Source: a virus (lineage: Duplodnaviria; Caudoviricetes). Taken from it: a DNA stretch of 41,683 bases. The position numbers and the translations under genes are program-made. The DNA lies in the IMG/VR virus record IMGVR_UViG_3300048597_000189, positions 1 through 41,683 of that record; one strand, written 5' to 3'. The notes beneath the pieces were generated by a model. It did not search any database, was not told the DNA's origin, and saw nothing but the letters and a program-made list of their open reading frames with translations. Position 1 is the stretch's first letter. Every line of letters starts with the position of its first letter. Positions 127-18,022 of this stretch are shown in pieces.

Positions 127-174
127 TGTAGCGCGACGGATCAAGTGGCCAGCCGCGACGGATCAAGTGGCCAG
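127..174 (+). repeat. Phage end equivalent to Mu attR: terminal inverted repeat with two tandem transposase-binding sites
   Basis: TGTAGCGCGACGGATCAAGTGGCCA at 127-151; CGCGACGGATCAAGTGGCCAG occurs identically at 132-152 and 154-174 (22-bp period, like Mu R1/R2). Confidence 0.9.
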
Positions 175-183
175 GTTTTTGAA

Positions 184-423
184 ATGCGTCGGCAGGGTTC
201 AACCACGATTGAACAGGTGGTGAAGGACAGGCACAATCGTCTCATGCGGATACGTCGCAGAGAGAGCAGGAAGCGCCGAGAACCTATCCTGGACGCTCGC
301 GCTCGACAGGCGGCCATCACGCGCAGGCTGATCTTGGTGGCCGCCGCTCTGGCAGGAGCGACGGCCGCGATGGTCGTGTTGCGATGGCGCTATCTGGCTA
401 CGCTCATCTGGCCTGACGGCTGA
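184..423 (+). CDS. Putative small membrane protein (basic N-terminus, C-terminal hydrophobic helix)
   Basis: In-phage part of ORF 52..423; Arg-rich stretch followed by LILVAAALAGATAAMVVL; start uncertain. Confidence 0.35.
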   Translation: MRRQGSTTIEQVVKDRHNRLMRIRRRESRKRREPILDARARQAAITRRLILVAAALAGATAAMVVLRWRYLATLIWPDG

Positions 424-631
424 GGCCGAGGACCAGCGTCCCGTCGTCCACAAGACAAGCCCGCAACGCTTTGCCGCTCGTCGCGAGCAAGAATGTCAGC
501 AGCACATGTCGGCTGTCCGCATCCATGTCCACGTGATCGGCGAACAGGTCGGCCATCCATTCCAAGATATGGGCGGCCTCTATGTCCTGGCCTGGCCCAC
601 GGCCAGGGGAGTGGGCGAGTAGCGCGCTCAT
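404..631 (-). CDS. Hypothetical 75-aa protein downstream of luxI
   Basis: ATG lies 3 nt after the luxI stop; globular-looking composition. Confidence 0.55.
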   Translation of the reverse strand: MSALLAHSPGRGPGQDIEAAHILEWMADLFADHVDMDADSRHVLLTFLLATSGKALRACLVDDGTLVLGLSRQAR

Positions 632-634
632 GCT

Positions 635-1234
635 TCACCCCACCTTACTGAATACAGCTGGCTCCGCCATCTCGCGGAGCCGCGCCAGGGTCAGCACGTC
701 GAACCGAGCCGTGACCGCCAGGACATCGCGGCCTTCCATGCGATGCGGCAGACCGAGCGGCGTCACCCGGAAATGCAGCTGGACGAGCCGGAGGAGCCAG
801 AGCGGGTCCATCTCGATGATGATGGTGTCAATGGCGCGGGGCAGGCCCCATTCGACGATGCCGGTCAGCAGCGACAGGGCCACCGGCGAGAGCTTGCGCC
901 CACGCTCGCGGTGTTCAGGCAGGACGCAGTAGCGGGTCCACTCCCAGATATGGTCGCCGATAGGGCGTTCGCCCTCGCAGAGCTGGGGCAGCACATCGGA
1001 CAGGAGATGTGGGCGAGTCGAGGGCAGCATGCGCTGGTAGCCAAGGACGCGCCCGCCTTCCACATGCAGCATGTGCACGGCGCGGTCGTCGTCGAACTGG
1101 TCGATCTCCAGACCATCGGACCGTCGAAGGTCCTCCCAGCCCATCTCCTCCACGAACACTCGATGACGCAACGCATGGGCCTGCCGCATGAGATCGCGAT
1201 GCTGGCCGAGGGACTCTGACGTGACGATGAGCAT
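635..1234 (-). CDS. luxI: LuxI-family acyl-homoserine-lactone synthase
   Basis: Conserved motifs LRHRVFVEEMGW, EIDQFD, RMLPSTRPHLL, WEWTRYCV, TPLGLP; AGGAGG SD at 1244-1249. Confidence 0.96.
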   Translation of the reverse strand: MLIVTSESLGQHRDLMRQAHALRHRVFVEEMGWEDLRRSDGLEIDQFDDDRAVHMLHVEGGRVLGYQRMLPSTRPHLLSDVLPQLCEGERPIGDHIWEWTRYCVLPEHRERGRKLSPVALSLLTGIVEWGLPRAIDTIIIEMDPLWLLRLVQLHFRVTPLGLPHRMEGRDVLAVTARFDVLTLARLREMAEPAVFSKVG

Positions 1235-1290
1235 GATGTCGTGCCTCCTGATGCCGAACGGATAGGACTATCCTCCGGGCGTCAGGACGC

Positions 1291-1316
1291 GGCTATGACA
1301 TGATCATGCCATGGCC
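1291..1316. promoter_or_regulatory. Candidate LuxR-binding palindrome upstream of luxI
   Basis: GGCTATGACATGATCATGCCATGGCC, 26-bp imperfect palindrome centred about 70 bp upstream of the luxI ATG; -10-like GATAGT at 1272-1267 on the minus strand. Confidence 0.5.
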
Positions 1317-1321
1317 CCGCG

Positions 1322-2035
1322 TCACTCGACCAGACGCAGTCTCAGGGCCTCGGCGACAAGCTGCGCGCGGCTCGAAACCCCGAACCGCGTGTGGAGTGCG
1401 CGGACATGGTTGTTCGCGGTGTCGTCGGCGATGCCAAGGATCGCGGCGATGTCTCCGGTCGTCTTGCCCGCCACCAGCCATTTCAGGACCTCGAGCTGGC
1501 GGGGCGTGATGTCCGGTGCGGGCCTGCGCGCGCTCAGGAGCAGGGTCTGGCCGATCGCGTATGTCGCCAGCAACGTGATCTTGCCCAAGGCGCGCGGCGG
1601 CAGATCGAGGCGCTCGCCGGCCAGCGATAGGCCGATGATGCCGCCCTCCAGCGGGTGAAGAGGCACGGTGACGCCGTGACGCAGCCCGAAATCCCCTGCC
1701 TCGTCCAATACCCGCTGCTGGGCTTCGTCGTCCGCCTTGAGATCCGACCAGCCGAAGGGACCATGGGCATTGCGCACCGCCGAGATCGCCGGATCGATGC
1801 CGATATAGCCTCTTGCGAAATAGCGTTGCGCCCATTCCAGAGGCCAGCGGTCCATGATCACGCTGTCGCGGGCCTGTGTCGATGGCTGGGCGGCGTCCGG
1901 GATGAAGCCGCCCAGAAGCGCGCCGATGCCATAGTCGGAGCACAGATCGAGAAGCGTGGCGCAGACCTCGCCGACAGAGGCAGCCGCGTTCAGCCGCGTG
2001 ATCGCGTGCAGCGTGTCGTCAAACTCGTTCGCCAT
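1322..2035 (-). CDS. luxR: LuxR-family AHL-binding transcriptional regulator
   Basis: Autoinducer-binding residues W..RY....Y...DP, PFGW, GVTVP; C-terminal LuxR HTH (TPRQLEVLKWLVAGKT..DIAAILGI); SD GGAGG precedes MANEF at 2035. Confidence 0.95.
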   Translation of the reverse strand: MANEFDDTLHAITRLNAAASVGEVCATLLDLCSDYGIGALLGGFIPDAAQPSTQARDSVIMDRWPLEWAQRYFARGYIGIDPAISAVRNAHGPFGWSDLKADDEAQQRVLDEAGDFGLRHGVTVPLHPLEGGIIGLSLAGERLDLPPRALGKITLLATYAIGQTLLLSARRPAPDITPRQLEVLKWLVAGKTTGDIAAILGIADDTANNHVRALHTRFGVSSRAQLVAEALRLRLVE

Positions 2036-2088
2036 GCCCAGCCCCCTCCGCAGAGAAGACCGGGCGCGGCGGGATTGCAAGAATGACA

Positions 2089-3069
2089 TCACATGATGGA
2101 GGACTTTTGCCCTACGCGATTGGTCGCATCATGCGGTGCCGGATTCAGCTGTTCGGCCACCAAGTCGATCCGCGAGAGTGCGATACGCGAGCGCCGCAGC
2201 CAGGCTGACCACTCCGTTGCCGGCGCATCTGGTTCGGTCCAGCCGATGGGCCACCCCATGATCCAGTCCGTGAAGGCAGGGTTCAAGGGCAGGGCTCCGG
2301 CCGGCTGCCGCGTGCCAGCCCTGCAGATCAGATGGAGCGGGTGCGAATAGGGGTAGCTCTCGGGCGTCGGCCCCGGCCGGAAGCCCAGACACCGCGCCGC
2401 CATCCAGATCAGCGTCCAGCCCCTCGCCGCCTCCCTCAGCCCCACCTGATGGCCCGACTGGTCCGTGCGGGTCATCATGACGAGGCCCCGCTCGTCCAGA
2501 CGCCACTCGGTCTCGTTCCCGCTCATCCCGACCGTCGGCGTCGGCCAGGATGAAGAGCCGAACGCGCCAGTGCGCAGCGCCGACCTCAGCCGCCGAGAAC
2601 AGGCCCGCCTCGATGCGGTAGCCCATGCCCGATAATTCTCGGGCGACCACGTCGAAACCGAGATCGACATGGCCGAGCACGTTTTCGAGGAAGACCCGGC
2701 CGGGTCGGCACTCGCCGATGATGCGGGCGATGTCGGGCCACAAATGGCGCGGGTCGGCCTCGCCCTGGCGCTTGCCCGCCGAGGAGAATGGCTGGCACGG
2801 ATATCCCGCCGAGAGGATGTCGATGCGGCCACGCCAGGGCCTGCCGTCGAATGTGCGGACGTCGCTCCAGATAGGGGCGTCATGGAGCGCGCCGTCCCGC
2901 ATCCGCGCCGTGAGGACGCGCTGCGCGAATGCGTCCCGCTCGACATAGGCGAGCGTGCGGTAGGCTGGCTCCGCGATGGCGAGGCCGAGCTCGAGCCCGC
3001 CGACGCCTGAGCAGAGGGAGAGGCCGTCAAGCCGGCTGGCTGCGGGCCATGGGGTTGATAGATCCACAA
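2089..3069 (-). CDS. Overlapping alternative-frame ORF, probable beta chain of the C5 methyltransferase (target-recognition region/motif IX)
   Basis: 326 codons open across the whole MTase; contains WPTPT and LNPAFTDWIMGWPIGWT, which is motif IX-like and missing from the alpha frame. Confidence 0.65.
   Translation of the reverse strand: MWIYQPHGPQPAGLTASPSAQASAGSSSASPSRSQPTARSPMSSGTHSRSASSRRGCGTARSMTPLSGATSAHSTAGPGVAASTSSRRDIRASHSPRRASARARPTRAICGPTSPASSASADPAGSSSKTCSAMSISVSTWSPENYRAWATASRRACSRRLRSALRTGAFGSSSWPTPTVGMSGNETEWRLDERGLVMMTRTDQSGHQVGLREAARGWTLIWMAARCLGFRPGPTPESYPYSHPLHLICRAGTRQPAGALPLNPAFTDWIMGWPIGWTEPDAPATEWSAWLRRSRIALSRIDLVAEQLNPAPHDATNRVGQKSSIM
2129..3067 (-). CDS. C5-cytosine DNA methyltransferase (alpha chain)
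   Basis: Motif I LCSGVGG, motif IV GYPCQPFS, motif VI ENV, motif VIII-like HWRVRLFI, motif X AGNGVV; probable GTG start at 3067 after GGAG (alternative ATG at 3115). Confidence 0.92.
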   Translation of the reverse strand: MDLSTPWPAASRLDGLSLCSGVGGLELGLAIAEPAYRTLAYVERDAFAQRVLTARMRDGALHDAPIWSDVRTFDGRPWRGRIDILSAGYPCQPFSSAGKRQGEADPRHLWPDIARIIGECRPGRVFLENVLGHVDLGFDVVARELSGMGYRIEAGLFSAAEVGAAHWRVRLFILADADGRDERERDRVASGRAGPRHDDPHGPVGPSGGAEGGGEGLDADLDGGAVSGLPAGADARELPLFAPAPSDLQGWHAAAGRSPALEPCLHGLDHGVAHRLDRTRCAGNGVVSLAAALAYRTLADRLGGRTAESGTA

Positions 3070-3248
3070 GTGTCGTCTCCGTGACGCTCGATGCGGCGTT
3101 CGGATCGCGGCTCATCTGCCCTGGCGGGCGGCCTCATGACGTTGATGGACCGGCAGCGCCGGCACTTGATCTCTAGCCGATCCTGGATGGCCTGTCTGGT
3201 GGCCTTGAACAGCAATTGCCCGCAGCCGCATCGCACCTCCTCCATCAT
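3027..3248 (-). CDS. com: Com-family zinc-finger translational regulator
   Basis: EVRCGCGQLLFK...LEIKCRRCRSIN; overlaps the start of a DNA-modification gene, as in Mu com-mom. Confidence 0.88.
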   Translation of the reverse strand: MMEEVRCGCGQLLFKATRQAIQDRLEIKCRRCRSINVMRPPARADEPRSERRIERHGDDTCGSINPMARSQPA

Positions 3249-3249
3249 C

Positions 3250-4047
3250 TCAGCCGCCACCGCTGATGATCAGTTCGCGCGCCGGCGTGCCGTTGGCGAG
3301 CCCGACGCTGTAGCTGAGCTCGGCGTCCTCGATCCGCGCCCATGAGAACAGCTCGCGCAGCTCGGGCACGTCGTTGACGGTGAGGATGAAGCGGCCTTGA
3401 AGCCCCTTCAGAACGCCCGCCAGGTGCTCGAAATCCTCCCGTCCGAACAGGTCGCGCCCGTAATAATGCTCGGTGCCCCAATAGGGCGGATCGACGAAGA
3501 ACAGCGCCTCCGGACGGTCATAGCGGGTGATGAACTCGGCATAGGGCAGACACTCGATCCACACGCCGCACAGCCGCTCATGCGCGGCCTCGAGCAGCGG
3601 CACCAGCTTGGTGAGATCAAAGCGCGCCGGCTGGCCGGGCGCCGTGCCGAATGTCCGCCCCGAGACCTTGCCGCCGAAGCCGAGCCGCTGGATCTGGAGG
3701 AAGCGGGCGGCGCGCTCCAGATCGGTGAGCGTGTCAGGATCGGTCGCCATCAGCCGCTCGAAATCGGCGCGGGATGCGAGCCGCCATTTCAGCATGTCGA
3801 GGAACGGCTCGTAATGCCGCTGCAGGATGCGGAAGAAGGTGGCCACGTCCCGGTTGAGGTCGTTGACCGCCTCGACCTTCGGCCGGGCCGCACGGCGGAA
3901 GAACACCCCGCCCATTCCCACAAAGGGCTCGGCATAGAGCCCGTGCGGCGTCGCCTCGATCATCGGGGTGAGGCGTTTGGCGAGCTGGCGCTTGCCCCCG
4001 ACATAGCCCGCGACTGGCGAAACCGGCCTGACCTTCTGAGTGTCCAT
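3250..4047 (-). CDS. Dam-like (D12 class) N6-adenine DNA methyltransferase
   Basis: YVGGKRQLA, YAEPFVGMGGVFF, NDLN, FFVDPPYW. Confidence 0.95.
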   Translation of the reverse strand: MDTQKVRPVSPVAGYVGGKRQLAKRLTPMIEATPHGLYAEPFVGMGGVFFRRAARPKVEAVNDLNRDVATFFRILQRHYEPFLDMLKWRLASRADFERLMATDPDTLTDLERAARFLQIQRLGFGGKVSGRTFGTAPGQPARFDLTKLVPLLEAAHERLCGVWIECLPYAEFITRYDRPEALFFVDPPYWGTEHYYGRDLFGREDFEHLAGVLKGLQGRFILTVNDVPELRELFSWARIEDAELSYSVGLANGTPARELIISGGG

Positions 4048-4196
4048 CTTGTGCGCTTCCCCGAATCATCGCCTTGAGGGTGCCGCCGCCTTCGGGCGGC
4101 CGGCGGGCGATGTTTCGAGGTCTCGTCATCGGGCGGGGTTTGAGCTTGCCGGCATTGGCCCCGCTGCGGCTTTCGGGCCGCCCCGTCGTCTGCCCA

Positions 4197-4361
4197 TCAG
4201 TTAGCGAGATGACCCGCGCCCATCGCCTCGAACTCATCGTCGATGCGGCGCGGTTCGTCGGCGGTCGTGGCGGGCGATGTCGCCACCGCATGGATGGCGG
4301 CGTATTGCTCGATCTCGTCGATGCAGTCGGCCGCGCTCAGCTTCTCGTGGTCATCACCCAT
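4197..4361 (-). CDS. Small acidic hypothetical protein (54 aa, not in the ORF track)
   Basis: MGDDHEKLSAADCIDEIEQYAAIHAVATSPATTADEPRRIDDEFEAMGAGHLAN; GGAGG SD; overlaps the upstream stop. Confidence 0.45.
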   Translation of the reverse strand: MGDDHEKLSAADCIDEIEQYAAIHAVATSPATTADEPRRIDDEFEAMGAGHLAN

Positions 4362-4947
4362 TGCCGCCTCCCATCGCCTGCGCAGTCGCCATCACCTGCT
4401 CGCGAAGATCAGCAAGCACGGCGTCAATCTCCGTTGGCGTCGTGGCGGCGGCGATGGCGGCCTCGGCCTGCCGGCGCAGCCCTTGCTCGGCCACCATGAT
4501 CGCGCTGAATTGGCTGGCATTGGCGATCACGCTCGCCGCTATCTGCGCCAGCGTCACGCCGCGCGCGGCGGCGATCATCGCCAGCGTCGGCGCATCCTCC
4601 GGCCCGCCTCCGGCCGCCACGGCGCGCGCTTCGGCGGCCTGCGCCGGCCAACTGTCAACCTCGGCCTGCGTGTAGGCGTCGCGGATCGGGCGCGAGAGCC
4701 CGCCGATGATCGCCATGGCGCGGCTCACTGCGCCGGCCCGCAGCATTTCAATGGGCGGCGCGGGCGGGATGATGTCCTCGAAAGTGACCTTGTCGCCCTT
4801 GAACACCGCTCGGACCGAGCCGATGCGCGAGATGTCGAAATCATGAGGGGACGGGATGGCCCGCTGGCCGGGTGCAAGCCCGAAATCCCCCGACGCGGTG
4901 CCGGCAACCCGGCCATCGTCGTTGATGATGAGATGATCCATGGTCAT
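4354..4947 (-). CDS. Tail-fibre assembly/chaperone-like protein
   Basis: Follows the fibre gene with ATGA overlap; Y..AEVDSWPAQAAEARA...APTLAMIAAARG pattern typical of post-fibre proteins. Confidence 0.6.
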   Translation of the reverse strand: MTMDHLIINDDGRVAGTASGDFGLAPGQRAIPSPHDFDISRIGSVRAVFKGDKVTFEDIIPPAPPIEMLRAGAVSRAMAIIGGLSRPIRDAYTQAEVDSWPAQAAEARAVAAGGGPEDAPTLAMIAAARGVTLAQIAASVIANASQFSAIMVAEQGLRRQAEAAIAAATTPTEIDAVLADLREQVMATAQAMGGGNG

Positions 4948-6305
4948 GCCTCAATGAGTGCGTTGACGGCGACGCTCCAGCCGGTGATCTGCAGCGTGCC
5001 GCTGATGATGATCTGGCTGTCCACCCAATCATGCTCGGCGCGGATGGTGAGGCCGTAGCTCGTGATATTGAGCGGCGTCGCGACATTCGAGACGCCGGAG
5101 ACATACTGGAACACGAGCCCTGTCGTGTTCCTGACATCGCAGGTCGCGATGATCTTGTCTGGCACACGCGCCCAATTAAGGGCGGATTGAAAATTACCGA
5201 CCACATAGCCGCCGGCATCGAGCGTCACATTGTCCGCGCCCGAGACCCATGTCAGCGCCCACCCAATATTGCCGGTGGTCCGGGTGAACGCAGCGCGGAG
5301 CACCGCCTTGTTGGCGAGGGCGGTCAGCACAGGGGCCGAGCCGGCAGCACCCGTCACCACGCGGGCGAGCAGCACGTCCAGCCGCGTCGAGCGGAAGCCG
5401 CCCAGGGTCGCGGCGTTCGGTGTGCCGACCAACCCGCCCGGCGCGGCGTCGGTGTCCGTCCCGCGCTGGATGTAGACCTCCGGGACGCCCGCATTGAGCC
5501 GCAGCCGCACGAAATAGGTGCTGTTGGCCACAAGGTTGGCAAACGCTGCAGCCGGCAGGATGACGCGCCGCTGACGCCCCATTCCGCCACTCATGTCCTG
5601 CCCGAGCGTGACGATCTCGCCGCCCGTGACGGTGATCGATCCGCCATTGCCGGCCGACGCCCCGACGCTGATCGCGGCCCGCGCATCGGCGGTGTAGATT
5701 TCCGGGAAGGGCATCGACCCGATGGGCTGATCGCCTATCCCCACCAGATCCTCCGGCACTGTATAGGCGTTGACCTGCGCGCCGGATTTGACCTCTGCGG
5801 GCGTCGCGCGGCGGGCATGCCCGAAATCCGTCGTGCTGGCCTGCACCGGCGTCCAGGTCAGCGCGGTCAGCTGGCGCAGCTCACGCGCCGGCGAGGTCAC
5901 CGGCGTCGAGCGGTCGATGATCCGCGCGCCGAGCGGGAGCGCAGTGAACACCCAGGCCGCCCCGTTCCAGATCGCGAGCTTGCCGGCCTGCCCCGCCCAC
6001 GCGCCGCCTGCGCCTGCACCCACCAACCAGGTCTCGCCGGCGGCAGGGGCGCCCGGCACGGCGGCGGTCACGGAGATCACCGTCACGAACTCGCGCTGGC
6101 GCTGCAGGATGGTCAGCAGCTGGTCGCGCGCCGCCCCCAGGGGCAGACCGGAGCCCTCGATGGCGTTGGCCAGCTCCTCCTGGACGTCGTTCAGCCATGT
6201 GTCGATCAGCGGCGTTCCGGGTACGCCGGCGGCGGTGTTCTTGCCGCGGAAACCTTTCTTGCCGGGTGCGATGTCGATGGTGTTGGCGGTGTCGATGCGG
6301 CGCAT
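4944..6305 (-). CDS. Tail fibre protein (Mu S position) with DUF2793-like segment
   Basis: N-terminal PGT....WLNDVQEEL of Mu-type fibres; PGAPAAGETWLVGAGAGGAWAGQAGKLAIWNG; TGATG overlap with the upstream gene. Confidence 0.85.
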   Translation of the reverse strand: MRRIDTANTIDIAPGKKGFRGKNTAAGVPGTPLIDTWLNDVQEELANAIEGSGLPLGAARDQLLTILQRQREFVTVISVTAAVPGAPAAGETWLVGAGAGGAWAGQAGKLAIWNGAAWVFTALPLGARIIDRSTPVTSPARELRQLTALTWTPVQASTTDFGHARRATPAEVKSGAQVNAYTVPEDLVGIGDQPIGSMPFPEIYTADARAAISVGASAGNGGSITVTGGEIVTLGQDMSGGMGRQRRVILPAAAFANLVANSTYFVRLRLNAGVPEVYIQRGTDTDAAPGGLVGTPNAATLGGFRSTRLDVLLARVVTGAAGSAPVLTALANKAVLRAAFTRTTGNIGWALTWVSGADNVTLDAGGYVVGNFQSALNWARVPDKIIATCDVRNTTGLVFQYVSGVSNVATPLNITSYGLTIRAEHDWVDSQIIISGTLQITGWSVAVNALIEA

Positions 6306-6916
6306 CACGGGCCTCCCGAATAGTCGAAGGCGACGAGGGTGTGGGCGGGCGCACGCCGCCTGATGTCGCATTCGATGTCTGACAGTGTGAAATCGTAGAG
6401 AAGGTCGCCGGCCTGCGCCTCGCCGGCGATGGCGAAATATTCCTCGACCGGAGCCGGAACATGCACCGTCCAGGCGAACTGCTCGGGCGACATAACCAGC
6501 TCGTCGCCGGCCACCGCCCCATCTGTTCCAAACGCCACGGACGCCACCTGCTCGGTGATGGTGATGGCCACTCCGCGCCTCGCGGCGAGCGTGATGAAAT
6601 AGTTGATCGACGCGCCGCCGCGCGCAGTCCAGCGCTGATGGGCGGACATGCGCCGCGCCTCCAAAGTCAACGCGCTGCCATCCGGACGGCAGGGATCAGG
6701 CCCAAGCACACGCTCGTAATCGGGCAGGCAATGGAGCGCGGTGCGCGGGTCGAACTCGTCGAGCAGCTGCGCGACCATGGCCTCGAGCTGCGCCACGCCC
6801 TGCGCGAACCCGCCGAGGATCGCGGCATAGACGCCATCATCCTCGGGCATCAGCCAGCCGGGCGGATCGATGGCGAGCGCCTCGGCGAGGATCGCGTCGC
6901 GGTCGCGGGCGATCAT
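6305..6916 (-). CDS. Baseplate wedge protein (Mu gp48/YmfQ, DUF2313)
   Basis: EFDPRTALHCLPDYERVLGPD, GGASINYFITLA, C-terminal ECDIRRRAPAHT. Confidence 0.88.
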   Translation of the reverse strand: MIARDRDAILAEALAIDPPGWLMPEDDGVYAAILGGFAQGVAQLEAMVAQLLDEFDPRTALHCLPDYERVLGPDPCRPDGSALTLEARRMSAHQRWTARGGASINYFITLAARRGVAITITEQVASVAFGTDGAVAGDELVMSPEQFAWTVHVPAPVEEYFAIAGEAQAGDLLYDFTLSDIECDIRRRAPAHTLVAFDYSGGP

Positions 6917-6926
6917 GCGAACCTCC

Positions 6927-8051
6927 TCATGGCAGCACGTCCCAGGCGAGCGCGCCTGGCACCGGAAGCTGCGTCGCCCCGGCGATGATGTCGGCTGCGG
7001 GCACAGTCACCTGGTGGCGATATTCCCCAGCCGCCGAGGAGATCGCCTCCGAGAGCCGTGACAGGGCAATGCGACCGCCGATCTCCGCATCGCGGGCATA
7101 GAAGGCGCCCCACGCCGCCTCGACGGCGGCGCGGATCTGCAGCGTGTCGGGCGCGATGGCGACGGTGAGGTTGTTGGCGAGCAGGCTCGCGGCAACGACG
7201 GTGACCTCCGCCGTCACCGGCTTGAGACCGGTGGTCGAGTTCATCACCCCCAGATGCGCCTGCATGGCCGCGAGCTCGGCCAAGGTCGGCGCGCGCGGCG
7301 CGGCCGCGGTGCCCATGGCGACCACCACGCCGACAGAGCCGAGACCTGTCCAGTTGGGGATGGTCTTGACCTTGGCGACCGCGAAGGCGTTGCCGATCCA
7401 TTTGGGATAATCGAAGCCCGCTCCGCCATGGCCCGGCTCCCGGATGACGGCGAGCAGCCTCCCGAGCATCGCGTCAGGGCTCTCGACATCGGCGCCGCCG
7501 GCCATGCCGCCGGCGTCAAGCGTCACGCTCTGCGGATCGAGGCTGGCGAAGGGCGTCACCAACGGCAGCGCGAGCCCGCCCGCGGCGTTGCCGTCGATCC
7601 CGGCCTCGACCGCCCTGAGGCTGACATTGACCGTTCCGCCAGCGCCGATCACCTCGCCGCCCGGCCAGACTTCCGCGAGAGCGCCGGAGGGGAGCCTGGC
7701 TTGCAGATTGGCGGGAATGGGGGTGCCGGGCACCCCGGCAACGGAAGCGATGCCCACCGCGCGCGTCGCAGGCCGGAGCCTCACGCCCCAGACCTCGCCA
7801 TGACGGATGAGATATTCCGGCTCCGCCGTGTCGGGCAGGAGCTGGTCGGCCACCCAGCGCAGATGCATATGAGCGCCGAACAGGATCTGCGCTTGCGTCC
7901 TGGCGACCATGGCCAGCATGCCGCGCGGGCTGCGCACGGCCCGAGCGATCGCCGCAGGCGGCAGGTCGGGGCGGATGCGCTGGATCTCGCTTTCGAGCGC
8001 CGCCTCCTGCTGGCGCGTCAGCTCGGTGGGCGTGGGCAGGGGAAAGGTCAT
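6927..8051 (-). CDS. Baseplate J-like protein (Mu gp47)
   Basis: QLLPDTAEPEYLIRHG, GGADVES, PGHGGAGFDY; position in the tail operon. Confidence 0.92.
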   Translation of the reverse strand: MTFPLPTPTELTRQQEAALESEIQRIRPDLPPAAIARAVRSPRGMLAMVARTQAQILFGAHMHLRWVADQLLPDTAEPEYLIRHGEVWGVRLRPATRAVGIASVAGVPGTPIPANLQARLPSGALAEVWPGGEVIGAGGTVNVSLRAVEAGIDGNAAGGLALPLVTPFASLDPQSVTLDAGGMAGGADVESPDAMLGRLLAVIREPGHGGAGFDYPKWIGNAFAVAKVKTIPNWTGLGSVGVVVAMGTAAAPRAPTLAELAAMQAHLGVMNSTTGLKPVTAEVTVVAASLLANNLTVAIAPDTLQIRAAVEAAWGAFYARDAEIGGRIALSRLSEAISSAAGEYRHQVTVPAADIIAGATQLPVPGALAWDVLP

Positions 8052-8539
8052 GCCGCACCTGTCGGGAGAGCGAGCGACACGTCGCCGTCCGCCACCTTGC
8101 AGCGGAGCGCGAGCACGCCGCGCCTCAGCCAGGCGGCGTCGACCTCCGCCGGAATGCCGGTCTCGTCCTCGACCCAGTCCAGCGCCTCGCCGGCCCATGC
8201 CCTGACAAGAGCCAGGGTGAGATCGTTCTCCTTGGCCCGGTCGAGCAGCCAGAGGCGCGAGCCGGTGCGCTCGCCATTTGCGTCGACGCCATCCTGCGTT
8301 GCGCCGCGCCGCGCCATCAGATTGTCGATCTCGGCGCTGCCGGTTGAACGGGCGTTCAACGCCGCGTCGCGCCCGGCCGGCAGCTCATCATCAGAAAGCG
8401 CACGCCGGTCGGCCCCGAGCGAGAGCAGCATCGGCGTCACCGGCGTCTCGTCGATGACAAGGTCGCCATCCGCGCCGATGGCGAGGTCGGTTCTCCGGGT
8501 CACCGGATCATAGACGAGGGCGAGGTCGAAGAAGGCCAT
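8048..8539 (-). CDS. Baseplate protein gp46
   Basis: LSLGADRRA, GSRLWLLDRAK, EALDWV. Confidence 0.9.
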   Translation of the reverse strand: MAFFDLALVYDPVTRRTDLAIGADGDLVIDETPVTPMLLSLGADRRALSDDELPAGRDAALNARSTGSAEIDNLMARRGATQDGVDANGERTGSRLWLLDRAKENDLTLALVRAWAGEALDWVEDETGIPAEVDAAWLRRGVLALRCKVADGDVSLALPTGAA

Positions 8540-8548
8540 GATGGCGCC

Positions 8549-8594
8549 ATTGTCGCCGCGCGCGCGCGGACCGCGCCACGCCCCGCGCGCGGGG
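8549..8594 (-). promoter_or_regulatory. Putative late promoter (baseplate/fibre operon)
   Basis: CCCCGCGCGCGGGGCGTG + 22 nt + GACAAT; motif shared with two other late-operon starts. Confidence 0.6.
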
Positions 8595-8624
8595 GATCAA
8601 GGGCCGGCGTCAATGGGTCGGGGT

Positions 8625-9194
8625 TCAGGTGCCGGGCTCGGGTTCGGGCGCAACCACGGGCACGACGGAGCAGATCACGCCGGTGTCGTCGACGGCGAGG
8701 AAATGCCCACCCTTCTTCATCTTCACATAGGCCGGCCTTGCGACGAAACGCGGCGCGGCCGCGCCCTCGCCGATACGGGAGATGACGCGGTCTTCCGTCA
8801 CCTTGACGCTGACGGTGCGCACCTTGACCGTGACCGCCTTGTCGCTGGTGACCTCGATCGTGCCATCGGCGCGGACGATTACCCGGTCGCCCTTGGCGCC
8901 GAACATCGCCGCCTCGCCCTCGGCGAGGTCTCCCATGCGATAGGCCGGCGCGCCCATGGGCAGGCCGATCAGGTCGCCGTGATCGCCGCCCACCGCGAAG
9001 ACCAGCATCGTGCCGGCCCCGCCCGGCGGGCGCGAGGCGAAGCCAAACTGGCTCGCCACCTCCACATCGGAACGCTCGACATGGCGATGCGTCTCGATGG
9101 TCGCGGTCTGCGATCCGCCATCGTCGCGCGTCGATTTGACCACGGCGCGGTTGACGAGGATGCGCAGCTGCTGGGCTAGTTCGGAAAGGTCCAT
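8625..9194 (-). CDS. Baseplate spike/assembly protein (Mu gp45)
   Basis: DVEVASQFGFASRPPGG, VFAVGGD, LAEGEAAMF. Confidence 0.9.
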   Translation of the reverse strand: MDLSELAQQLRILVNRAVVKSTRDDGGSQTATIETHRHVERSDVEVASQFGFASRPPGGAGTMLVFAVGGDHGDLIGLPMGAPAYRMGDLAEGEAAMFGAKGDRVIVRADGTIEVTSDKAVTVKVRTVSVKVTEDRVISRIGEGAAAPRFVARPAYVKMKKGGHFLAVDDTGVICSVVPVVAPEPEPGT

Positions 9195-9218
9195 GCGAGC
9201 CTCCTCATTCCAGCGATG

Positions 9219-10460
9219 TCATTCCAGGGGCCTGGCTTCGCTGTCGAGGCCAGCCTCGTGCGTCAGGCCGCCTTCGCTCTCCTCGCCGCGCGACGAACGC
9301 CGCTCGCCCTCGGGCAGGAGGTCATAGGCTTCGGGGCCGGTGAGCTTCAGCCGCGTGCGCACGCCTTCCGCGCCATAGGAATAGGTGACGCCGGCCACCA
9401 GCATGTCGCGTGCGATGCGGGCCCAGCGGTCGGAGACGTCGGCGAGCTCGTTGGGCCGCCAGAGCCGGCCGCCGGAGCGGTAATCCTCCACCATGTGGTT
9501 GAGGGTCTCGCCCTTGCCGCGCCGGGTGCGCTTGTGCCATTCGGCCTGCGTCTGCGCATCCACCCCGTTCGCCTGCGTCCGCGCCGCGGCGACGAAGGGC
9601 CGCCAGCGGGTGATCTCCTCGTCGCGCGCATGGCCCATGACGAGCGCGCCGCCGCCTTCCGAAGGCTGGCCGTCGACCGGCTCCGGCGCGGGAGCCTGCG
9701 CCGCGCGCGGCGCGTCATTGGCGGAAAGGCCTGGTCGCGCGCCCCGCCGCCCGCCATTCTTCTCGGCCTGCGCCTTGATGAAATAATCCGAGAAGCGCTC
9801 GCGCATGGAGAGCCGAGCCCCCTGCCGGAAGGCGAGGCCCGGGAAATGCGGCGCGCCCGGCGCGCGCCTCGTGCCGGAACGGGTGAGCAACAATCCGCCG
9901 ACGCCATCCGAGAGCACGAGAAGCGCCCTTTGCCTGGCGTATTTCTCGATGGCGGACATCACCTTTTCGCCGGTCTCGATCACGGCCCGCTTGATCGGCG
10001 CGCCGGTGTCCACCTCCGCCGTGACGCTGATGCCGAAGGGCTTGCACAGAGCGGCGGCGAATTCCTCCAGCTTCACGTCGCGCCACTCATGCCGGCCCTT
10101 CGGGTCATGATGGCAATCGACGAGGTCGCCCGTCAGGTCGCGGCCTGCGACCGCCAGCGAGAACCTCCCCTCGGAGGCGTCGGTGATGACATCATCCACC
10201 CAGCCCTTGAGCACCGGCTCGCCATCGATGGAGAGCAGCGCCGCCGCGCCCCAGTTGATCGGCTTTCCCTCAATCATTCGCGTCGCCCAGGGCAGCGCGG
10301 AGAGATCGCGCCAGCCATCCTGCAATTCGAGCTGGAAGGAACCGGAGATCTCGGAAAGGTCGCGGATGATCTCGGCGCGCGTCCAGCGGTCGAATGTCAC
10401 GCCGTCCAGCGTCAGCGCGATGCGGCGGATGGGCTCTCCCGCCTGGCCGGGCCAGATCAT
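9219..10460 (-). CDS. Baseplate hub/tail protein P (Mu gp44)
   Basis: FDRWTRAEI..ISGSF, GRDLTGDLVDC, RERFSDY, LWRPN; ATGA overlap at 10457-10460. Confidence 0.92.
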   Translation of the reverse strand: MIWPGQAGEPIRRIALTLDGVTFDRWTRAEIIRDLSEISGSFQLELQDGWRDLSALPWATRMIEGKPINWGAAALLSIDGEPVLKGWVDDVITDASEGRFSLAVAGRDLTGDLVDCHHDPKGRHEWRDVKLEEFAAALCKPFGISVTAEVDTGAPIKRAVIETGEKVMSAIEKYARQRALLVLSDGVGGLLLTRSGTRRAPGAPHFPGLAFRQGARLSMRERFSDYFIKAQAEKNGGRRGARPGLSANDAPRAAQAPAPEPVDGQPSEGGGALVMGHARDEEITRWRPFVAAARTQANGVDAQTQAEWHKRTRRGKGETLNHMVEDYRSGGRLWRPNELADVSDRWARIARDMLVAGVTYSYGAEGVRTRLKLTGPEAYDLLPEGERRSSRGEESEGGLTHEAGLDSEARPLE

Positions 10461-11743
10461 GGCAGCACCTCGATGCGCCCGCCCGGCAGACGCCCCGGAT
10501 GGCGCAGCCTGTTGCGGCGCATGATGTCGGCATAGACGCCCGTGAGCCGCTGCGGATTGTCGCCGGCGACGGACTGCGCGATGAGCCAGGCGCTGAGGCC
10601 CGGCCCCGTCTCGATCGAGATGACGGAGGGGAGCCGCCCCACGGCCTCGTTGATGTCCCGCGCCAGCGCCGCGCGCGTCGCGGCGACGCGTCGCCATGGC
10701 AGGGCGGCCTGCCCCGGCGCGGCGGCGGCATGGGCGGCGATGCGCGCCCCATGCGCGGCGAGTGCATCATCGACGCGGGCGCGCCAAGCCTGCGCATCCT
10801 GCCGGCTCTCGAAGGGGATGGCGCTGGCGAGTTCGACGAGCGCGGACATCGCCATCATCTCGGCGGCGAGCGGAATGGCGGCGGCCGCAGGCGCAGGCGC
10901 AAGCGCGGCGAGGCGCCCGGCAAGGCCGATCATGGCGAGCGCGCCGGCCCGTGGGTCTCGGGGAGCCGGGCGCGAATACCCGGATTGATTGGCCGGGCCA
11001 ATGGAGGGTTCGGGCAGCGGCATAGACGCCTTGCGGATGGCAAGCACCGAAAGCTCGATGGCGGAGGCCAGATGCGCAGGCGCAGCGTCAGGGCCGGCGA
11101 GATCGGCGCGGGTCAGGGCGTCGAAGGCAAGCCCGATGTCGCGGGCGGCAGCCGCCGCATGTCGGCCCTCCGAGACGAAGCCGGCGGCGATCTCCACCAC
11201 GGCGCCCGCCGTCGCGCGGATCTCCGCCACCAGCCCGAGCGCCCCCATCGGCAAGGCAAGCACGTCAAGCGCGAGGGCGCGCGCCGCGGCCAGCAGATCT
11301 CCGGCCGCGCCGAGAAGCCCGGCGAGCGAGGAGATAAGGCCTATGGGGCCGCGCGGGCGCATCTCGGGGTCGAACTCGGCCTCGATCCTTGCGACCATCA
11401 GCTCGTCGGAGGCGAAAGATATGCGGGCTGGCCGAAGCAGCACGCAGCGGATCTGCCCGCGCCAGGGATGCAGCAATGTGCCTGCGCCTGCTCGCGCGAA
11501 GGCGGCCTCGAGCCTGCGCGCCTGCGCGACATAATCCGGCCCGATGACGAGACCCGAAACGGGGATCGGCCCATCGAGCCGGCCAAGGTCCTGATGCGTA
11601 TTGAGGTCCAGCCCCGGATAGAGCGTGGTGATGATGCGCCGGCCAACCGAGTGTTCGGCATCGATCATATGGAAGGGCACGCCGCGCCAGGCGGCGGGCA
11701 TCAGGCCGGGCAGCAGGCTGGCGGGATCGTCGAAAAGGCCCAT
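10457..11743 (-). CDS. DNA circularization protein N (Mu gp43)
   Basis: AAWRGVPF, GRR....YPG, DLGR, GAGTLLHPWRG, RNRLRHPG. Confidence 0.92.
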   Translation of the reverse strand: MGLFDDPASLLPGLMPAAWRGVPFHMIDAEHSVGRRIITTLYPGLDLNTHQDLGRLDGPIPVSGLVIGPDYVAQARRLEAAFARAGAGTLLHPWRGQIRCVLLRPARISFASDELMVARIEAEFDPEMRPRGPIGLISSLAGLLGAAGDLLAAARALALDVLALPMGALGLVAEIRATAGAVVEIAAGFVSEGRHAAAAARDIGLAFDALTRADLAGPDAAPAHLASAIELSVLAIRKASMPLPEPSIGPANQSGYSRPAPRDPRAGALAMIGLAGRLAALAPAPAAAAIPLAAEMMAMSALVELASAIPFESRQDAQAWRARVDDALAAHGARIAAHAAAAPGQAALPWRRVAATRAALARDINEAVGRLPSVISIETGPGLSAWLIAQSVAGDNPQRLTGVYADIMRRNRLRHPGRLPGGRIEVLP

Positions 11744-13890
11744 CAGGCGCGCCCCAGCATGGCGCCGCGATTGGGCTCAAGCGGCACGGCGGCGTTGGTG
11801 CTCTCGACATTGACGATGCGCGACCCTTCCGTGGCCGCGACCGTGATGCGCCCGCCGACCTCCGCCTTCTGCACCCCGCCGGAGGGCGGCAGTGGCTTGG
11901 AGGGCAGCGAGGTCGGGTTGAAGCCTTCCATGGTGGATGCGGGCGGAGCGCCGCCCTCGCCACCCTTCGGTGCGCCGCCGCCGCCACCAAGCCATGACGG
12001 CATTGAGGGCCATTTGATGATGCCCGACAGGTCGATATCGCCAATGGCGGCGACGATGCGGGACGGGATTGTCTGCACCCAGGCGATGAACTCGGCAAAC
12101 TTGCTCTGAATTCCATCCCACAGTGACTGGATGACGCGGCTGCCGGCCGCCTGCACGACCGCCAGATTATTGACCACTGCTTGCGCGATCTCCCCAACAA
12201 TCTGCGCCATCACAGTCGCAGAGTTCACTGCGAAAGTGCCTAGGCCAATGATGAACTGGCCTATGAGCTCCGAACCGAGCCGTAGCCACTCCGGACCGCG
12301 CGCGATGATGAGAGCGACAAGATTGGAGATGCCGGCTTCGAGCCAGGCACCAAACGCTTTCAACGCATCGCCCGATTTGATGGACTCCCAGGCTGCGCTG
12401 AATGCAGCCGACAGGGATGCCCAAGCCTGTTGGAGAGCCGGCAGAACGGTGGACCAGTTCTGCCAGACCCAGTACGCGGCATAGGCTAGCGCCGCGAGGC
12501 CGGCGAGGATCAACGTGATCGGCGAGAAGATCAGGCCCATCATCGCCCCAAGTGCCCCGAAGACCGGTGTCAGGATCGCCAGCGCCGCGCCGAAAGCCAG
12601 AATGGCACCGGTGATCGTCAGGACGTTGTTGATCAGATTGGGGTAGGAGGCGTCGGTTTGTTTCACCCACTGCAGCAGTTCCGTCAGGCCCTTGTTGGCC
12701 ATGGGCAGGTTCTCGGCGAAGGCCAGCCCGACGCGTCGGCCGACCTGTTTCGAGACCTCGCCAAAGAAAAGCATCTGCTGACTGAGGCCCCGCATGCGGC
12801 TGTCGAAGTCCTTGGCGATGACATCGACACCGGCGCTCGCGATCTCCTCCTTGAAGCGCTTGAACTGGTCCTTGTTGAGGAGCATCGGGATCAGGAAATC
12901 GAGCACCTGCATGTCCTGGAAGATGCGGCCGATCTTGGTGCCGCTGATCAGCTGCTCGATGCGTCGGCGAACCTCGCCCTCGGCCTCGGAGCCCTTCAGC
13001 CCTTTGTGGCCGGTCTCCTTCATGATCTTGTCGATCTCTTTCTGTGGCACCTTGAGCTTCTCGCTCATCTTCTGGACCACGGCCTCGACAGGGTTGATGC
13101 CCTTGGCGGTGGCGTTCGCCATCAGCTTGACGACATCGACGCCGAGCTCGTCCTTGAAGTTCTTGATCGCCTCGGGCGCGGCGACTTTGGTCAGGAAGTT
13201 CTTCAGGTTGTTGGCGGCCTTGTCGGGGCTGTCCGTGCCGAGCATCGCCGTCTGCAGCGCGGCTCCGAGGAAGTTCACCGCCTCCATGCCGGTAACGCCA
13301 AGCTTCGCCATCTGGTTTGTGAGTTCGGGAAACTCGCCGGCCATGTTCTTGAACTCAAAACGGCCAAGCTTGCCGGCTGTGACGAGCCGGGCCATGGCCA
13401 GCTCCATCTGCTCGGGCGCAATCTTCAGCGTGTTGGCCAGCGCGAAGGCGGTCTTTGCGGTGTCCTCGATTGTAGCGTTTGCCGCGGTGGCGACGCGTCC
13501 GATCGTGGGCATGATCTGCTGGATCATAGGCTCGGCCATGCCGGCGGCGATCAGCACCTGCGCCCCCTTGGCGAGGTTTTCAGAGGTCTGGCCGACCTTG
13601 AGGGCTAGTGCCTCATAGCTCCTCGCGGTCGTCGCAATGAAGCTTTCGACCTCCTTGCCGGATCGGCCGGAGGTGATCGCGATGTCCCTCAGCTGCGCGT
13701 CGAAGGCGGCGGCCGTCTGCATCGGCCCAAGGAACGACACAGCGGCCAGGGCCCCGCCGATGACGCCTATCTGCCGGCCGACATTGGCGAGGCGGCTGCC
13801 CATCGCCTGGAACTGCCCGACCAGCCCCCGCATTGGCGCGGTGAGCCTGTCGACGAGACCGACGACGACCGAGACCTTCATGTCCGCCAT
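11743..13890 (-). CDS. Tail tape measure protein
   Basis: 715 aa, Ala-rich helical; GKLGRFEFKNMA, AANNLKNFL, hydrophobic segments; position. Confidence 0.92.
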   Translation of the reverse strand: MADMKVSVVVGLVDRLTAPMRGLVGQFQAMGSRLANVGRQIGVIGGALAAVSFLGPMQTAAAFDAQLRDIAITSGRSGKEVESFIATTARSYEALALKVGQTSENLAKGAQVLIAAGMAEPMIQQIMPTIGRVATAANATIEDTAKTAFALANTLKIAPEQMELAMARLVTAGKLGRFEFKNMAGEFPELTNQMAKLGVTGMEAVNFLGAALQTAMLGTDSPDKAANNLKNFLTKVAAPEAIKNFKDELGVDVVKLMANATAKGINPVEAVVQKMSEKLKVPQKEIDKIMKETGHKGLKGSEAEGEVRRRIEQLISGTKIGRIFQDMQVLDFLIPMLLNKDQFKRFKEEIASAGVDVIAKDFDSRMRGLSQQMLFFGEVSKQVGRRVGLAFAENLPMANKGLTELLQWVKQTDASYPNLINNVLTITGAILAFGAALAILTPVFGALGAMMGLIFSPITLILAGLAALAYAAYWVWQNWSTVLPALQQAWASLSAAFSAAWESIKSGDALKAFGAWLEAGISNLVALIIARGPEWLRLGSELIGQFIIGLGTFAVNSATVMAQIVGEIAQAVVNNLAVVQAAGSRVIQSLWDGIQSKFAEFIAWVQTIPSRIVAAIGDIDLSGIIKWPSMPSWLGGGGGAPKGGEGGAPPASTMEGFNPTSLPSKPLPPSGGVQKAEVGGRITVAATEGSRIVNVESTNAAVPLEPNRGAMLGRA

Positions 13891-13921
13891 GATGCCGCCT
13901 CCTCAGCCGCAGCCCTTTGGG

Positions 13922-14084
13922 TCACCCCTCCTTTTCGCGCTCGGCGACTTGGTTTGCCGCCCAGTGCCAGAATGACAATTCCCGGAGCGTCAGCCGCTCG
14001 ACTTCCGTGAAGCCGCCGCCATACCAGCGCGCGACGCTCGCCATGATCGCCGGCCAGTCCGGCGGCCACTCACTCTGAAAGAAA
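13922..14084 (-). CDS. Frameshift extension of the tail assembly chaperone (gpGT/GpE'-like)
   Basis: WPPDWPAIMASVARWYGGGFTEVERLTLRELSFWHWAA in the +1/-2 frame after TTTCTTTC. Confidence 0.65.
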
Positions 14085-14495
14085 CGAGATGCACGCCGAC
14101 GCCGCGTTGATGTCGCGCGTCCCCATCTTGTCGAACAGCGCCGTCATCACCGCCATGCTGATGCCGGTGGCGCGGGCGAAGCCGACGATGGGCTGGCGCT
14201 CCGGCGAGGCCTGCATGACCATGCGCATGTCGGCGCCATTGAGCTCGCGGAAGACGAGATCGGAATAGACCTCCTCGCGCGTCTTGCCGTTGGAGCCCTT
14301 GATGGTGAGCGGCACCGGCTTGAGGAGCGGGAGCCTGACGGAACCGTCGGCGAGCAGCTGCGCCCGCTCCGGCAGGGTCTTCTTGCCCTCCGGCCTGTCC
14401 TCGATGATGACGGCTTCGGACGCCGCCTCAGGGGCCGCGCCCTGCTCGTCTTGCGTCAGGTCGACCTCGACCTTGCCTGTTTCGATCCGGCCCAT
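14070..14495 (-). CDS. Tail assembly chaperone (Mu gp41)
   Basis: LPLLKPV, LVFRELNGADM, FDKMGTRD; lies between the tube and tape-measure genes. Confidence 0.85.
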   Translation of the reverse strand: MGRIETGKVEVDLTQDEQGAAPEAASEAVIIEDRPEGKKTLPERAQLLADGSVRLPLLKPVPLTIKGSNGKTREEVYSDLVFRELNGADMRMVMQASPERQPIVGFARATGISMAVMTALFDKMGTRDINAASACISFLSE

Positions 14496-14854
14496 TACGC
14501 GATCTCCTCATAGCTGCCAGCCGACCATTTCAGCGACACCTTGCCGCCCTCGCCGCCGGTGATCTCGCGCTGGTCCGTCAGGAATGCGCCGGGGAAGACG
14601 AAGGTCTGGCCGGTGTCGCAGGCGACCTGCAGCTCCCCCTCGTCGACGCCGTAAAGCTCGGAGAACTTCTGGCCGCGCTCGAGCACGGTCGTGGCCTCGA
14701 TCTCCGAGGCCATGAACTCCTGCGCGCGTCCGACCTGGCGGCCATAGACCACCGCCTTGTTGGCGATGCCGCCCAGTTTCAGCTTCGCGCCCTTCTCGAC
14801 CGGGATGTTGCGGCCGCGCCAGACGATGTCGACAATTCCCAGAACCTGCGCCAT
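14495..14854 (-). CDS. Tail tube protein (Mu gpM)
   Basis: 119 aa after the sheath; GAKLKLGG, ACDTGQTF. Confidence 0.88.
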   Translation of the reverse strand: MAQVLGIVDIVWRGRNIPVEKGAKLKLGGIANKAVVYGRQVGRAQEFMASEIEATTVLERGQKFSELYGVDEGELQVACDTGQTFVFPGAFLTDQREITGGEGGKVSLKWSAGSYEEIA

Positions 14855-14900
14855 CGCGCCTCTCCTTCAACCGTTGCTTCAATCGGCCTTGAACCGGCCG

Positions 14901-16382: not shown

Positions 16383-16390
16383 GATTGGCC

Positions 16391-17747: not shown

Positions 17748-17779
17748 AGCCTGTCACCCCTTCTGGTCGCCCTTGCAGG

Positions 17780-18022
17780 TCAGCTCGCGTCGGCCTCGCC
17801 GGCGCTATCGATCACCGTCAGCAGCGGCTCCGCCCTGAGGAGCTTGAGCTGCGCGGCGGTGAAGGCGCCGGCCGGATGGGTGACATCGCCGGTATGGGCG
17901 ATGCCGGCGCGGCGCAGGCCGTCCTTGCGCGAGATGATGCGGACGCCCTCGGCCGCGGCCTTGGCGGCCTTCGGCTTCTTGACGTTCTCGGCGGCGGGAT
18001 GGGTCTGGTTGGGGTCGGACAT
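17780..18022 (-). CDS. HI1506/gp35-like small head-associated protein
   Basis: IISRKDGLRRAGIAH...FTAAQLKLLRAEPLL. Confidence 0.75.
   Translation of the reverse strand: MSDPNQTHPAAENVKKPKAAKAAAEGVRIISRKDGLRRAGIAHTGDVTHPAGAFTAAQLKLLRAEPLLTVIDSAGEADAS

What the first reader, a model, noticed from the sequence alone, without database searches (positions are those of the whole stretch)
404..2035. Complete LuxR-LuxI quorum-sensing circuit inside a Mu-like phage
Seen: luxR, luxI and a coupled small ORF lie 0.3-1.9 kb inside the transposase-bound end at 127, so they would transpose and be packaged with the phage. Both genes keep their catalytic or ligand-binding residues. Known: phage-borne receptors that eavesdrop on host signals (VP882 VqmA, LuxR solos) and peptide arbitrium systems in Bacillus phages are described. 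I do not know of a characterised phage that both makes and senses its own AHL. Inference: this may be an AHL-based phage-to-phage signal that counts lysogens and controls induction, or a way to rewire host quorum sensing.
Basis: partly seen in the sequence, partly recalled or inferred. Interest (0 to 1): 0.92.

Follow-up and report, generated by a model that had tools for sequence, protein, structure and literature searches.

The report
Host-type quorum-sensing cargo in Mu-like prophage
A complete jumping (Mu-like) prophage carries, just inside one end, an intact bacterial signal-making and signal-sensing gene pair plus a conserved small gene; unlike the signalling phages described in 2026 it keeps its ordinary repressor switch, so the cassette likely works as cargo that rewires the host rather than as the phage's own lysis-lysogeny switch.

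Summary
Observation confirmed. luxR (1322-2035), luxI (635-1234) and a 75-aa gene (404-631) lie intact inside a complete Mu-like prophage (127-41584, 5-bp target duplication). A lux-box-like palindrome precedes luxI, and the small gene has two relatives that probably sit beside the closest luxR/luxI. The novelty claim fails: a July 2026 preprint (Bunsick et al.) shows Phaeobacter prophages, one Mu-like, that make and sense AHLs to choose lysogeny. This cassette is not that module. It has no xre/hth genes, LuxI/LuxR are 28% identical to a Roseobacter module, it sits in the variable end slot, and the phage keeps a cI/Ner switch with no second lux box. It belongs to a patchy, mobile Hyphomicrobiales luxR-luxI-small-ORF family, laid out like cinR-cinI-cinS and mmaR-mmaI-mmaP. 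Unrelated phages captured this family independently (4 IMG/VR records; one clade rejected, p=0.0007). No related Mu-like phage examined carries it. Best reading: an autoinducing cargo cassette whose small protein likely binds a host XRE regulator. Boldest open reading: the small protein is an anti-repressor of the phage's cI. This scan noted similar cargo before in Microvirga and Devosia prophages. Nothing was shown at the bench.

The parts
127..41584 (.). Complete Mu-like (transposable) prophage
   Evidence: Terminal inverted repeat, TG...CA ends and 5-bp duplication TCACG at 122-126 and 41585-41589; Mu gene set; record rated 100% complete
127..173 (+). Phage end next to the cassette, with two repeated presumed transposase-binding sites (138-151, 160-173)
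   Evidence: the binding role is inferred from Mu biology
404..631 (-). 75-aa small protein, third gene of the cassette; predicted helix-helix-strand-strand fold; partner unknown
   Evidence: Starts 3 nt after luxI stop; relatives P0131, P0133, P0134, P0136; P0131 and P0136 come from contigs of the same lengths (2,848 and 793,358) as the closest LuxI/LuxR; model pLDDT 78.5
635..1234 (-). luxI, acyl-homoserine lactone synthase, predicted acyl-CoA-using type
   Evidence: PF00765; residues; best solved relatives 5w8a E 1.5e-32 and p-coumaroyl-HSL synthase 6wn0 E 4.4e-28, ahead of LasI E 2.3e-15
1246..1287 (-). Imperfect inverted repeat overlapping the luxI ribosome-binding site (AGGAGG at 1244-1249); role untested
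   Evidence: RNA fold of 1226-1325; no shuffle control run
1295..1312 (.). 18-bp lux-box-like palindrome ATGGCATGATCATGTCAT, centred about 69 bp before the luxI start
   Evidence: 8 of 9 pairs; reached by 38 of 2000 shuffles; a palindrome at the same place in 12 of 17 homologous loci against 1 of 17 in a control stretch; single copy in the phage
1322..2035 (-). luxR, AHL receptor and transcription factor
   Evidence: PF03472 and PF00196; alignment to LasR; 237-aa relatives at 72% and 65% support the start at 2035
2129..4047 (-). Context: C5 methyltransferase (2129-3115), com-like gene (3027-3260), adenine methyltransferase (3250-4047), marking the end slot in which relatives carry other cargo
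39416..40479 (.). Context: the phage's own switch, Ner-like gene (39416-39697, -) facing away from cI (39808-40479, +; HTH plus S24 peptidase)
   Evidence: SfsB/Ner model E 1.7e-13; HTH_3 and Peptidase_S24; AxAG, GDSM and KR motifs invariant with three relatives

Best explanation
The phage carries an intact luxR-luxI-small-gene cassette of a family that otherwise sits in bacterial genomes, and it likely acts as lysogenic-conversion cargo: LuxI is predicted to make an AHL, LuxR would bind the palindrome before luxI and amplify the signal, and the co-induced small protein likely binds a host XRE-type regulator, as CinS and MmaP do. Shown: genes, residues, position inside the phage ends, position-conserved palindrome, conservation of the small gene, retained cI/Ner switch, independent capture of the family by other phages. 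Inferred: AHL production, acyl-CoA substrate, autoinduction, co-transcription of the small gene, and its target. The result would be a density signal private to lysogens that changes host behaviour, while induction stays with the SOS-type cI.
For: (1) Layout luxR - palindrome - luxI - small ORF is shared with bacterial relatives and matches cinR-cinI-cinS and mmaR-mmaI-mmaP, where the small co-transcribed protein binds the XRE regulator PraR (PMC10790750 and PMC5977203, passages). (2) The closest relatives are Hyphomicrobiales genes at 65-81%; 35 of 401 genomes of one family hold one at E<=1e-45; neighbours differ from locus to locus (rpoH, gcv, hflKC, phn/recN, trb, IS21; 53 of 86 called proteins from 12 loci scanned; trb on a plasmid). 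(3) The slot between dam and the phage end holds unrelated genes in relatives. (4) The phage keeps cI with its cleavage motifs and Ner, and the lux box has no second copy; the best match between cI and ner is 10 of 18, a level reached by 454 other windows. (5) Signs of maintenance: no frame breaks, GC 0.66-0.67 against 0.68 for the phage, codon adaptation of luxI/luxR 0.66 within the core-gene range 0.61-0.82.
Against: The host genome is not held, so no PraR and no LuxR target outside the phage could be looked for. No related Mu-like phage carries the cassette (0 of 50 records; 0 of 13 end regions), so selection for it on the phage is not shown. There is no expression or chemical evidence.
Confidence: 0.48

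Rival explanations
1. Self-made AHL triggers induction: LuxR-AHL switches on luxI and the small gene, whose product inactivates the phage's own cI without cleavage, giving an SOS-independent route to lysis and transposition when lysogens are dense.
For: Phage small proteins induced by LuxR-AHL inactivate their phage's cI non-proteolytically, lack homologues, and can lie far from the switch (PMC10432266, passages). The cI here has an XRE-type HTH, the protein class that CinS and MmaP bind. This route needs no lux box at the switch.
Against: In the known modules the small gene is transcribed divergently from its regulator and no luxI is described in the passages read; here it trails luxI like a host-type gene. 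Its closest relatives accompany the nearest luxR/luxI on contigs whose phage status is unknown. Lysing when lysogens are dense is the opposite of the logic found in Phaeobacter.
Confidence: 0.17
2. A recent, one-off passenger: the cassette recombined into the tolerant end slot and does nothing that matters to the phage.
For: Not found in 50 related virus records (12 of them at least 90% complete, positive control) or 13 related prophage end regions; the small-gene profile finds nothing in 401 genomes or in IMG/VR (positive control).
Against: All three genes and the palindrome are intact; composition fits the phage; the same LuxI family was taken up by other phages at least twice more. The relatives tested are distant (gp47 27-57%), and the closest ones (portal 90%, gpT 92%) are 9-kb fragments too short to reach the end slot.
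Confidence: 0.2
3. The small protein is a feedback modulator of the circuit itself (binding LuxR or tuning LuxI), and the cassette acts on the host only through the AHL and LuxR.
For: It is tightly coupled to luxI, and the slot after luxI holds several unrelated small-protein families that track the LuxI subclade.
Against: The two characterised examples of this layout in Hyphomicrobiales act on PraR, not on LuxR. No fold match to any known anti-activator stood out (inconclusive).
Confidence: 0.08
4. It works like the Phaeobacter modules: LuxR-AHL directly reinforces lysogeny at the phage switch.
For: Precedent in a Mu-like phage.
Against: No xre or hth gene beside luxR and no match to a Roseobacter module's xre/hth; cI/Ner retained, whereas those phages lack them; no lux box at the switch; 38 kb from the switch.
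Confidence: 0.07

Closest known systems
hth / xre-luxR-luxI quorum-sensing switches of Phaeobacter inhibens T5 Phage A (Mu-like) and Phage B (Bunsick et al., bioRxiv 10.64898/2026.07.02.736140)
   Same: Prophage-borne luxR directly followed by luxI; one case is a Mu-like phage; alphaproteobacterial host.
   Different: There the module replaces cI/Ner, has xre and hth genes, and was found only in the Roseobacter clade. Here there is no xre/hth, a small gene follows luxI, cI/Ner are kept, the cassette lies in the end slot, the host is probably Hyphomicrobiales, and LuxI/LuxR are 28% identical to a type-D module.
cinR-cinI-cinS of Rhizobium leguminosarum and mmaR-mmaI-mmaP of Methylobacterium fujisawaense (PMC5977203, PMC10790750)
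   Same: LuxR/LuxI pair with a small ORF right after luxI, in Hyphomicrobiales.
   Different: Those are bacterial loci with a shown target (PraR). Here the cassette is in a prophage, and homology of the small protein to CinS or MmaP was not testable; a Methylobacterium bullatum LuxI with a 63-aa downstream ORF is 55% identical, but its assignment to MmaI is not established.
TF-smORF anti-repressor modules of VP882-like, Vibrio and Aeromonas phages (PMC10432266)
   Same: Phage LuxR-type regulator plus an orphan small protein, in a phage that keeps an SOS-cleavable cI.
   Different: Those respond to host-made signal and have a divergent smORF, with XRE needed in the LuxR cases; here the phage has its own synthase and the small gene trails luxI.

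Membership tests
LuxI/LuxR AHL quorum-sensing pair | Autoinducer synthase domain with conserved N-terminal residues | tested here: met
LuxI/LuxR AHL quorum-sensing pair | Receptor with autoinducer-binding and HTH domains and conserved pocket residues | tested here: met
LuxI/LuxR AHL quorum-sensing pair | Inverted-repeat operator upstream of luxI | tested here: met
   1295-1312; binding itself untested
LuxI/LuxR AHL quorum-sensing pair | AHL production and autoinduction | not testable with these tools
   Needs LC-MS and a reporter
Mu-like transposable prophage | MuA/MuB, TG...CA ends with repeated end sites, 5-bp target duplication, Mu-type head and tail genes | tested here: met
Roseobacter prophage hth / xre-luxR-luxI switch | xre upstream of luxR in one operon, with a divergent hth gene | tested here: not met
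   A methyltransferase lies upstream of luxR; no match to xre/hth of NC_023143
Roseobacter prophage hth / xre-luxR-luxI switch | No canonical cI/Cro or C/Ner regulators in the phage | tested here: not met
   cI and Ner-like genes present
Roseobacter prophage hth / xre-luxR-luxI switch | AHL promotes lysogeny | not testable with these tools
   Bench test needed
Cin/Mma-type luxR-luxI-small anti-repressor system | Small ORF immediately after luxI | tested here: met
   3-nt gap; conserved family
Cin/Mma-type luxR-luxI-small anti-repressor system | Sequence homology to CinS or MmaP | tested here: inconclusive
   No named CinS/MmaP sequence at hand; no match to 80 other candidate post-luxI ORFs or to Pfam, PHROGs, NCBIfam
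Cin/Mma-type luxR-luxI-small anti-repressor system | Small protein binds host PraR | not testable with these tools
   Host genome not held
Phage TF-smORF anti-repressor module | smORF transcribed divergently from its transcription factor | tested here: not met
   All three genes are on one strand in tandem
Phage TF-smORF anti-repressor module | smORF inactivates the phage's cI | not testable with these tools
   Needs a reporter or pull-down

The most novel reading that the evidence does not exclude
A transposable phage has turned a host-type luxR-luxI-anti-repressor cassette on itself: it makes its own AHL and uses the co-induced small protein to switch off its SOS-cleavable cI. That would join self-made signal (Phaeobacter type) with small-protein anti-repression (VP882 type) in a second, independently evolved design, recruited repeatedly by unrelated Hyphomicrobiales phages.
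Probability: 0.17. Interest if true: 0.8.

Novelty: new variant of a known kind. Interest (0 to 1): 0.48.

Why it matters
Phage-made AHL signalling was described in 2026 only as a switch module confined to Roseobacter prophages. This window, four IMG/VR records and earlier notes of this scan point to a second pattern in Hyphomicrobiales: whole host-type luxR-luxI-small-gene cassettes carried as end cargo by phages that keep their repressor. If active, phages move complete communication channels between soil and water bacteria, which would help explain the patchy spread of this LuxI family. The three-gene cassette is small and can be tested directly for which protein the small gene product targets.

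Tried and rejected
Complex prediction of the small protein with the cI N-terminal domain gave no verdict (score 0.00, partner fold uncertain); it is no evidence either way. Fold searches of the small-protein model found nothing clear (PDB, BFVD, VIA best Z 5.4). ESM Atlas gave only low-count epimerase-fragment hits or none. The word-indexed protein search found only the small protein itself; the full HMMER scan found its relatives. A likeness by eye to the ORF after luxI in L154 was not supported by BLASTP or the profile. The phage end motif found 0 IMG/VR records. The single-protein LuxI scan of IMG/VR found none; the alignment scan found 4. GenBank phages gave 6 distant LuxI-like matches at 29-34%. 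Sequencing runs: 3 small-share holders, no RNA holder listed; only scattered 151-230-base pieces matched closely, two of them across 1905-2198 in X1, and the phage body was barely covered, so occurrence in another sample is not shown. The sigma-70 scan found no promoter before luxI or luxR and no terminator. The + strand ORF 52-423 crosses the phage end and scores poorly on codon use; rejected as a gene. A careful 99-row tree did not finish; quick trees of 51 and 31 chosen rows were used. Identity with the Mesorhizobium R1-I1-crotonase circuit was considered and dropped: no crotonase follows luxI. The DNA around the closest relatives (P0002/P0126/P0136 and P0003/P0127/P0131) did not come up in the genome or metagenome scans, so whether they are phage-borne is open.

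Full report
What is there. The window is one virus record holding a whole Mu-like prophage from 127 to 41584, with inverted ends, repeated end sites and the 5-bp duplication TCACG. Mu transposition, head and tail genes fill it. Between the methyltransferase/com genes and the end at 127 lie, on one strand, luxR (1322-2035), luxI (635-1234) and a 75-aa gene (404-631). LuxI and LuxR match their Pfam families and keep the conserved residues. The host is probably a member of the Hyphomicrobiales. The flank encodes the end of a cell-wall hydrolase, 25 of 32 residues identical to one from a genome in the family of Microvirga pakistanensis, and named LuxI relatives come from Microvirga, Mesorhizobium and Aminobacter.

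Signs of a working circuit. An 18-bp palindrome sits about 69 bp before luxI. Shuffles reach it in 38 of 2000 cases, and 12 of 17 homologous loci have a palindrome at that place against 1 of 17 in a control stretch (two near-duplicate loci left out). The box of L006 and L007, which hold the closest LuxI among the genome loci, resembles it. The small gene is real: a full HMMER scan returned four small relatives. One of the two (P0136) diverges at its C-terminus. The closest solved synthases are 5w8a (recalled as BjaI) and the p-coumaroyl-HSL synthase 6wn0, which points to the acyl-CoA-using subgroup described in PMC10470506 (passages). The signal itself cannot be predicted.

Prior art. Bunsick et al. 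(bioRxiv 10.64898/2026.07.02.736140) show that two Phaeobacter prophages, one of the Mu family, make and sense AHLs through hth / xre-luxR-luxI modules that stand in for cI/Ner. They report 53 of 93 Roseobacter prophages with luxI, and modules confined to that clade. I read the outline, parts 1-3 of 9, section 14, the first part of the Discussion, part of the supplementary legends and selected passages, half of supplementary file 3, and a word search of all 8 files of the PMC copy. Their prophage hits were curated for xre-luxR-luxI operons, so cassettes like this one may lie unreported in their data; figures and the unread parts may bear on this. Seven library searches listed no paper on luxI cargo in Hyphomicrobiales prophages; the library lacks most subscription papers.

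Not the Phaeobacter module. No xre or hth flanks luxR. A type-D Roseobacter module (NC_023143) matches at 28% for both LuxI and LuxR, and its xre/hth have no match in the window. The phage keeps a cI with HTH and S24 domains and intact motifs, facing a Ner-like gene 38 kb away. The palindrome has no second copy; the best match at the switch is 10 of 18, which is background.

Where the cassette comes from. The LuxI family is patchy: 35 of 401 sampled genomes of one family. luxR precedes luxI in most loci, and a small ORF often follows, from several unrelated sequence families. Neighbours vary and include trb and IS genes. None of 120 luxI loci (overlapping fetches included; 49 of at least 10 kb) matched a phage protein of the window. 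Four other IMG/VR records carry the family at 69-72%: L158 after an endolysin, with a convergent HTH gene; the near-identical L159 and L160 between lysis genes and an integrase, with luxR convergent; L161 cut at its end. The window, L158 and L159 do not form one clade (AU p=0.0007, 31 rows; p=0.00006 with the window's three closest relatives added), so capture happened more than once. The window's LuxI groups with P0002-P0004 (SH-aLRT 93).

Results against a fixed role in this phage lineage. No LuxI was found in 50 of the 85 related virus loci that I could search (12 records at least 90% complete; the built-in control rang nowhere, my positive control did). None was found in 13 end regions of related prophages drawn from 14 genomes with a gp47 match (two regions cut by contig ends). 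Their end slot holds other genes, in two cases at 58% GC. These relatives are distant, and the closest are fragments. On the other side, the cassette is intact and fits the phage in GC and codon use.

How it most likely works. The layout is that of cinR-cinI-cinS and mmaR-mmaI-mmaP, where LuxR-AHL induces luxI with a small protein that binds the XRE regulator PraR (PMC10790750, passages and supplement search; PMC5977203, passages). PraR orthologues are conserved across Alphaproteobacteria, and related XRE proteins affect phage burst size in Caulobacter (PMC10688885, passages). I therefore read the cassette as cargo that gives lysogens their own density signal and a protein output aimed at a host regulator (0.48). 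The target is inferred from position only. The strongest rival with real novelty is that the small protein inactivates the phage's own cI, as phage smORFs do (PMC10432266, passages) (0.17). A neutral passenger (0.2), a feedback modulator (0.08) and a Phaeobacter-like lysogeny switch (0.07) make up the rest. The accessory-gene concept for Mu-like phages is from PMC4378225 (passages), where variable regions lie mostly in the left arm.

Earlier notes of this scan. A Microvirga prophage with a related cassette (e1-6224784) gave me the cinS/praR lead; L158 shows a comparable layout, which I checked only in part. Notes on a Devosia prophage and on a three-gene cassette at an att site were not tested.

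Verdict. Real and intact, a new variant of a kind first described in 2026. What remains is a different design in a different host order, with a testable small-protein output. Interest 0.48.

Noticed in passing
window 41585-41683 and 122-126; L216:9523-9560, L251, L252, L253: Possible insertion hot spot. The prophage sits on the stop codon of a cell-wall hydrolase (PF07486) gene. A Mu-type end (TGTAGCGCGAA...CAAATGGC) lies within 10 nt after the stop of the same gene in 3 of 31 loci examined, with a truncated end site in a fourth (one further motif hit, L256, looked spurious). G295 holds a deleted Mu-like prophage there; G158 and G067 keep dam fragments. Those four may share one old insertion, but the window's is in the opposite orientation, so at least two events are likely. 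Mu-like phages are usually thought to insert almost at random (recalled).
   Followed up: partly
window 105-126 and 41585-41601: The empty site would contain a near-perfect tandem repeat of about 16-17 bp covering the end of the hydrolase gene; perhaps the scar of an earlier insertion, or an assembly effect.
   Followed up: no
window 21463-22737 (-): Head morphogenesis protein gpF is fused to an ADP-ribosyltransferase domain (PF03496, E 9.6e-17); close relatives match only its first 226 residues, suggesting a variable C-terminal payload.
   Followed up: no
L217:9526 (G067): A related Mu-like prophage with clear ends and 5-bp duplication is inserted among genes that look like a gene transfer agent cluster (cluster identified by eye).
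   Followed up: no
L008, L010-L012, L105, L107, L110, L112, L158-L161; L015-L020, L137; L152, L154, L155: At least three further unannotated small-protein families follow luxI in this clade; the representatives scanned had no NCBIfam match. Candidates for new CinS/MmaP-like anti-repressors.
   Followed up: partly
window 2129-4047 (-): Two DNA methyltransferases (C5 and adenine) with a com-like gene stand where Mu has com-mom; most fetched relatives showed dam but no C5 match.
   Followed up: no
H5, PP882867.1:318-689: A Dinoroseobacter phage genome has a partial LuxI-like match (34%) annotated as hypothetical.
   Followed up: no
window 39740-39790: An inverted repeat (GAATGTCACC...GGTGACATTC) between ner and cI is a likely repressor operator (seen).
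   Followed up: no
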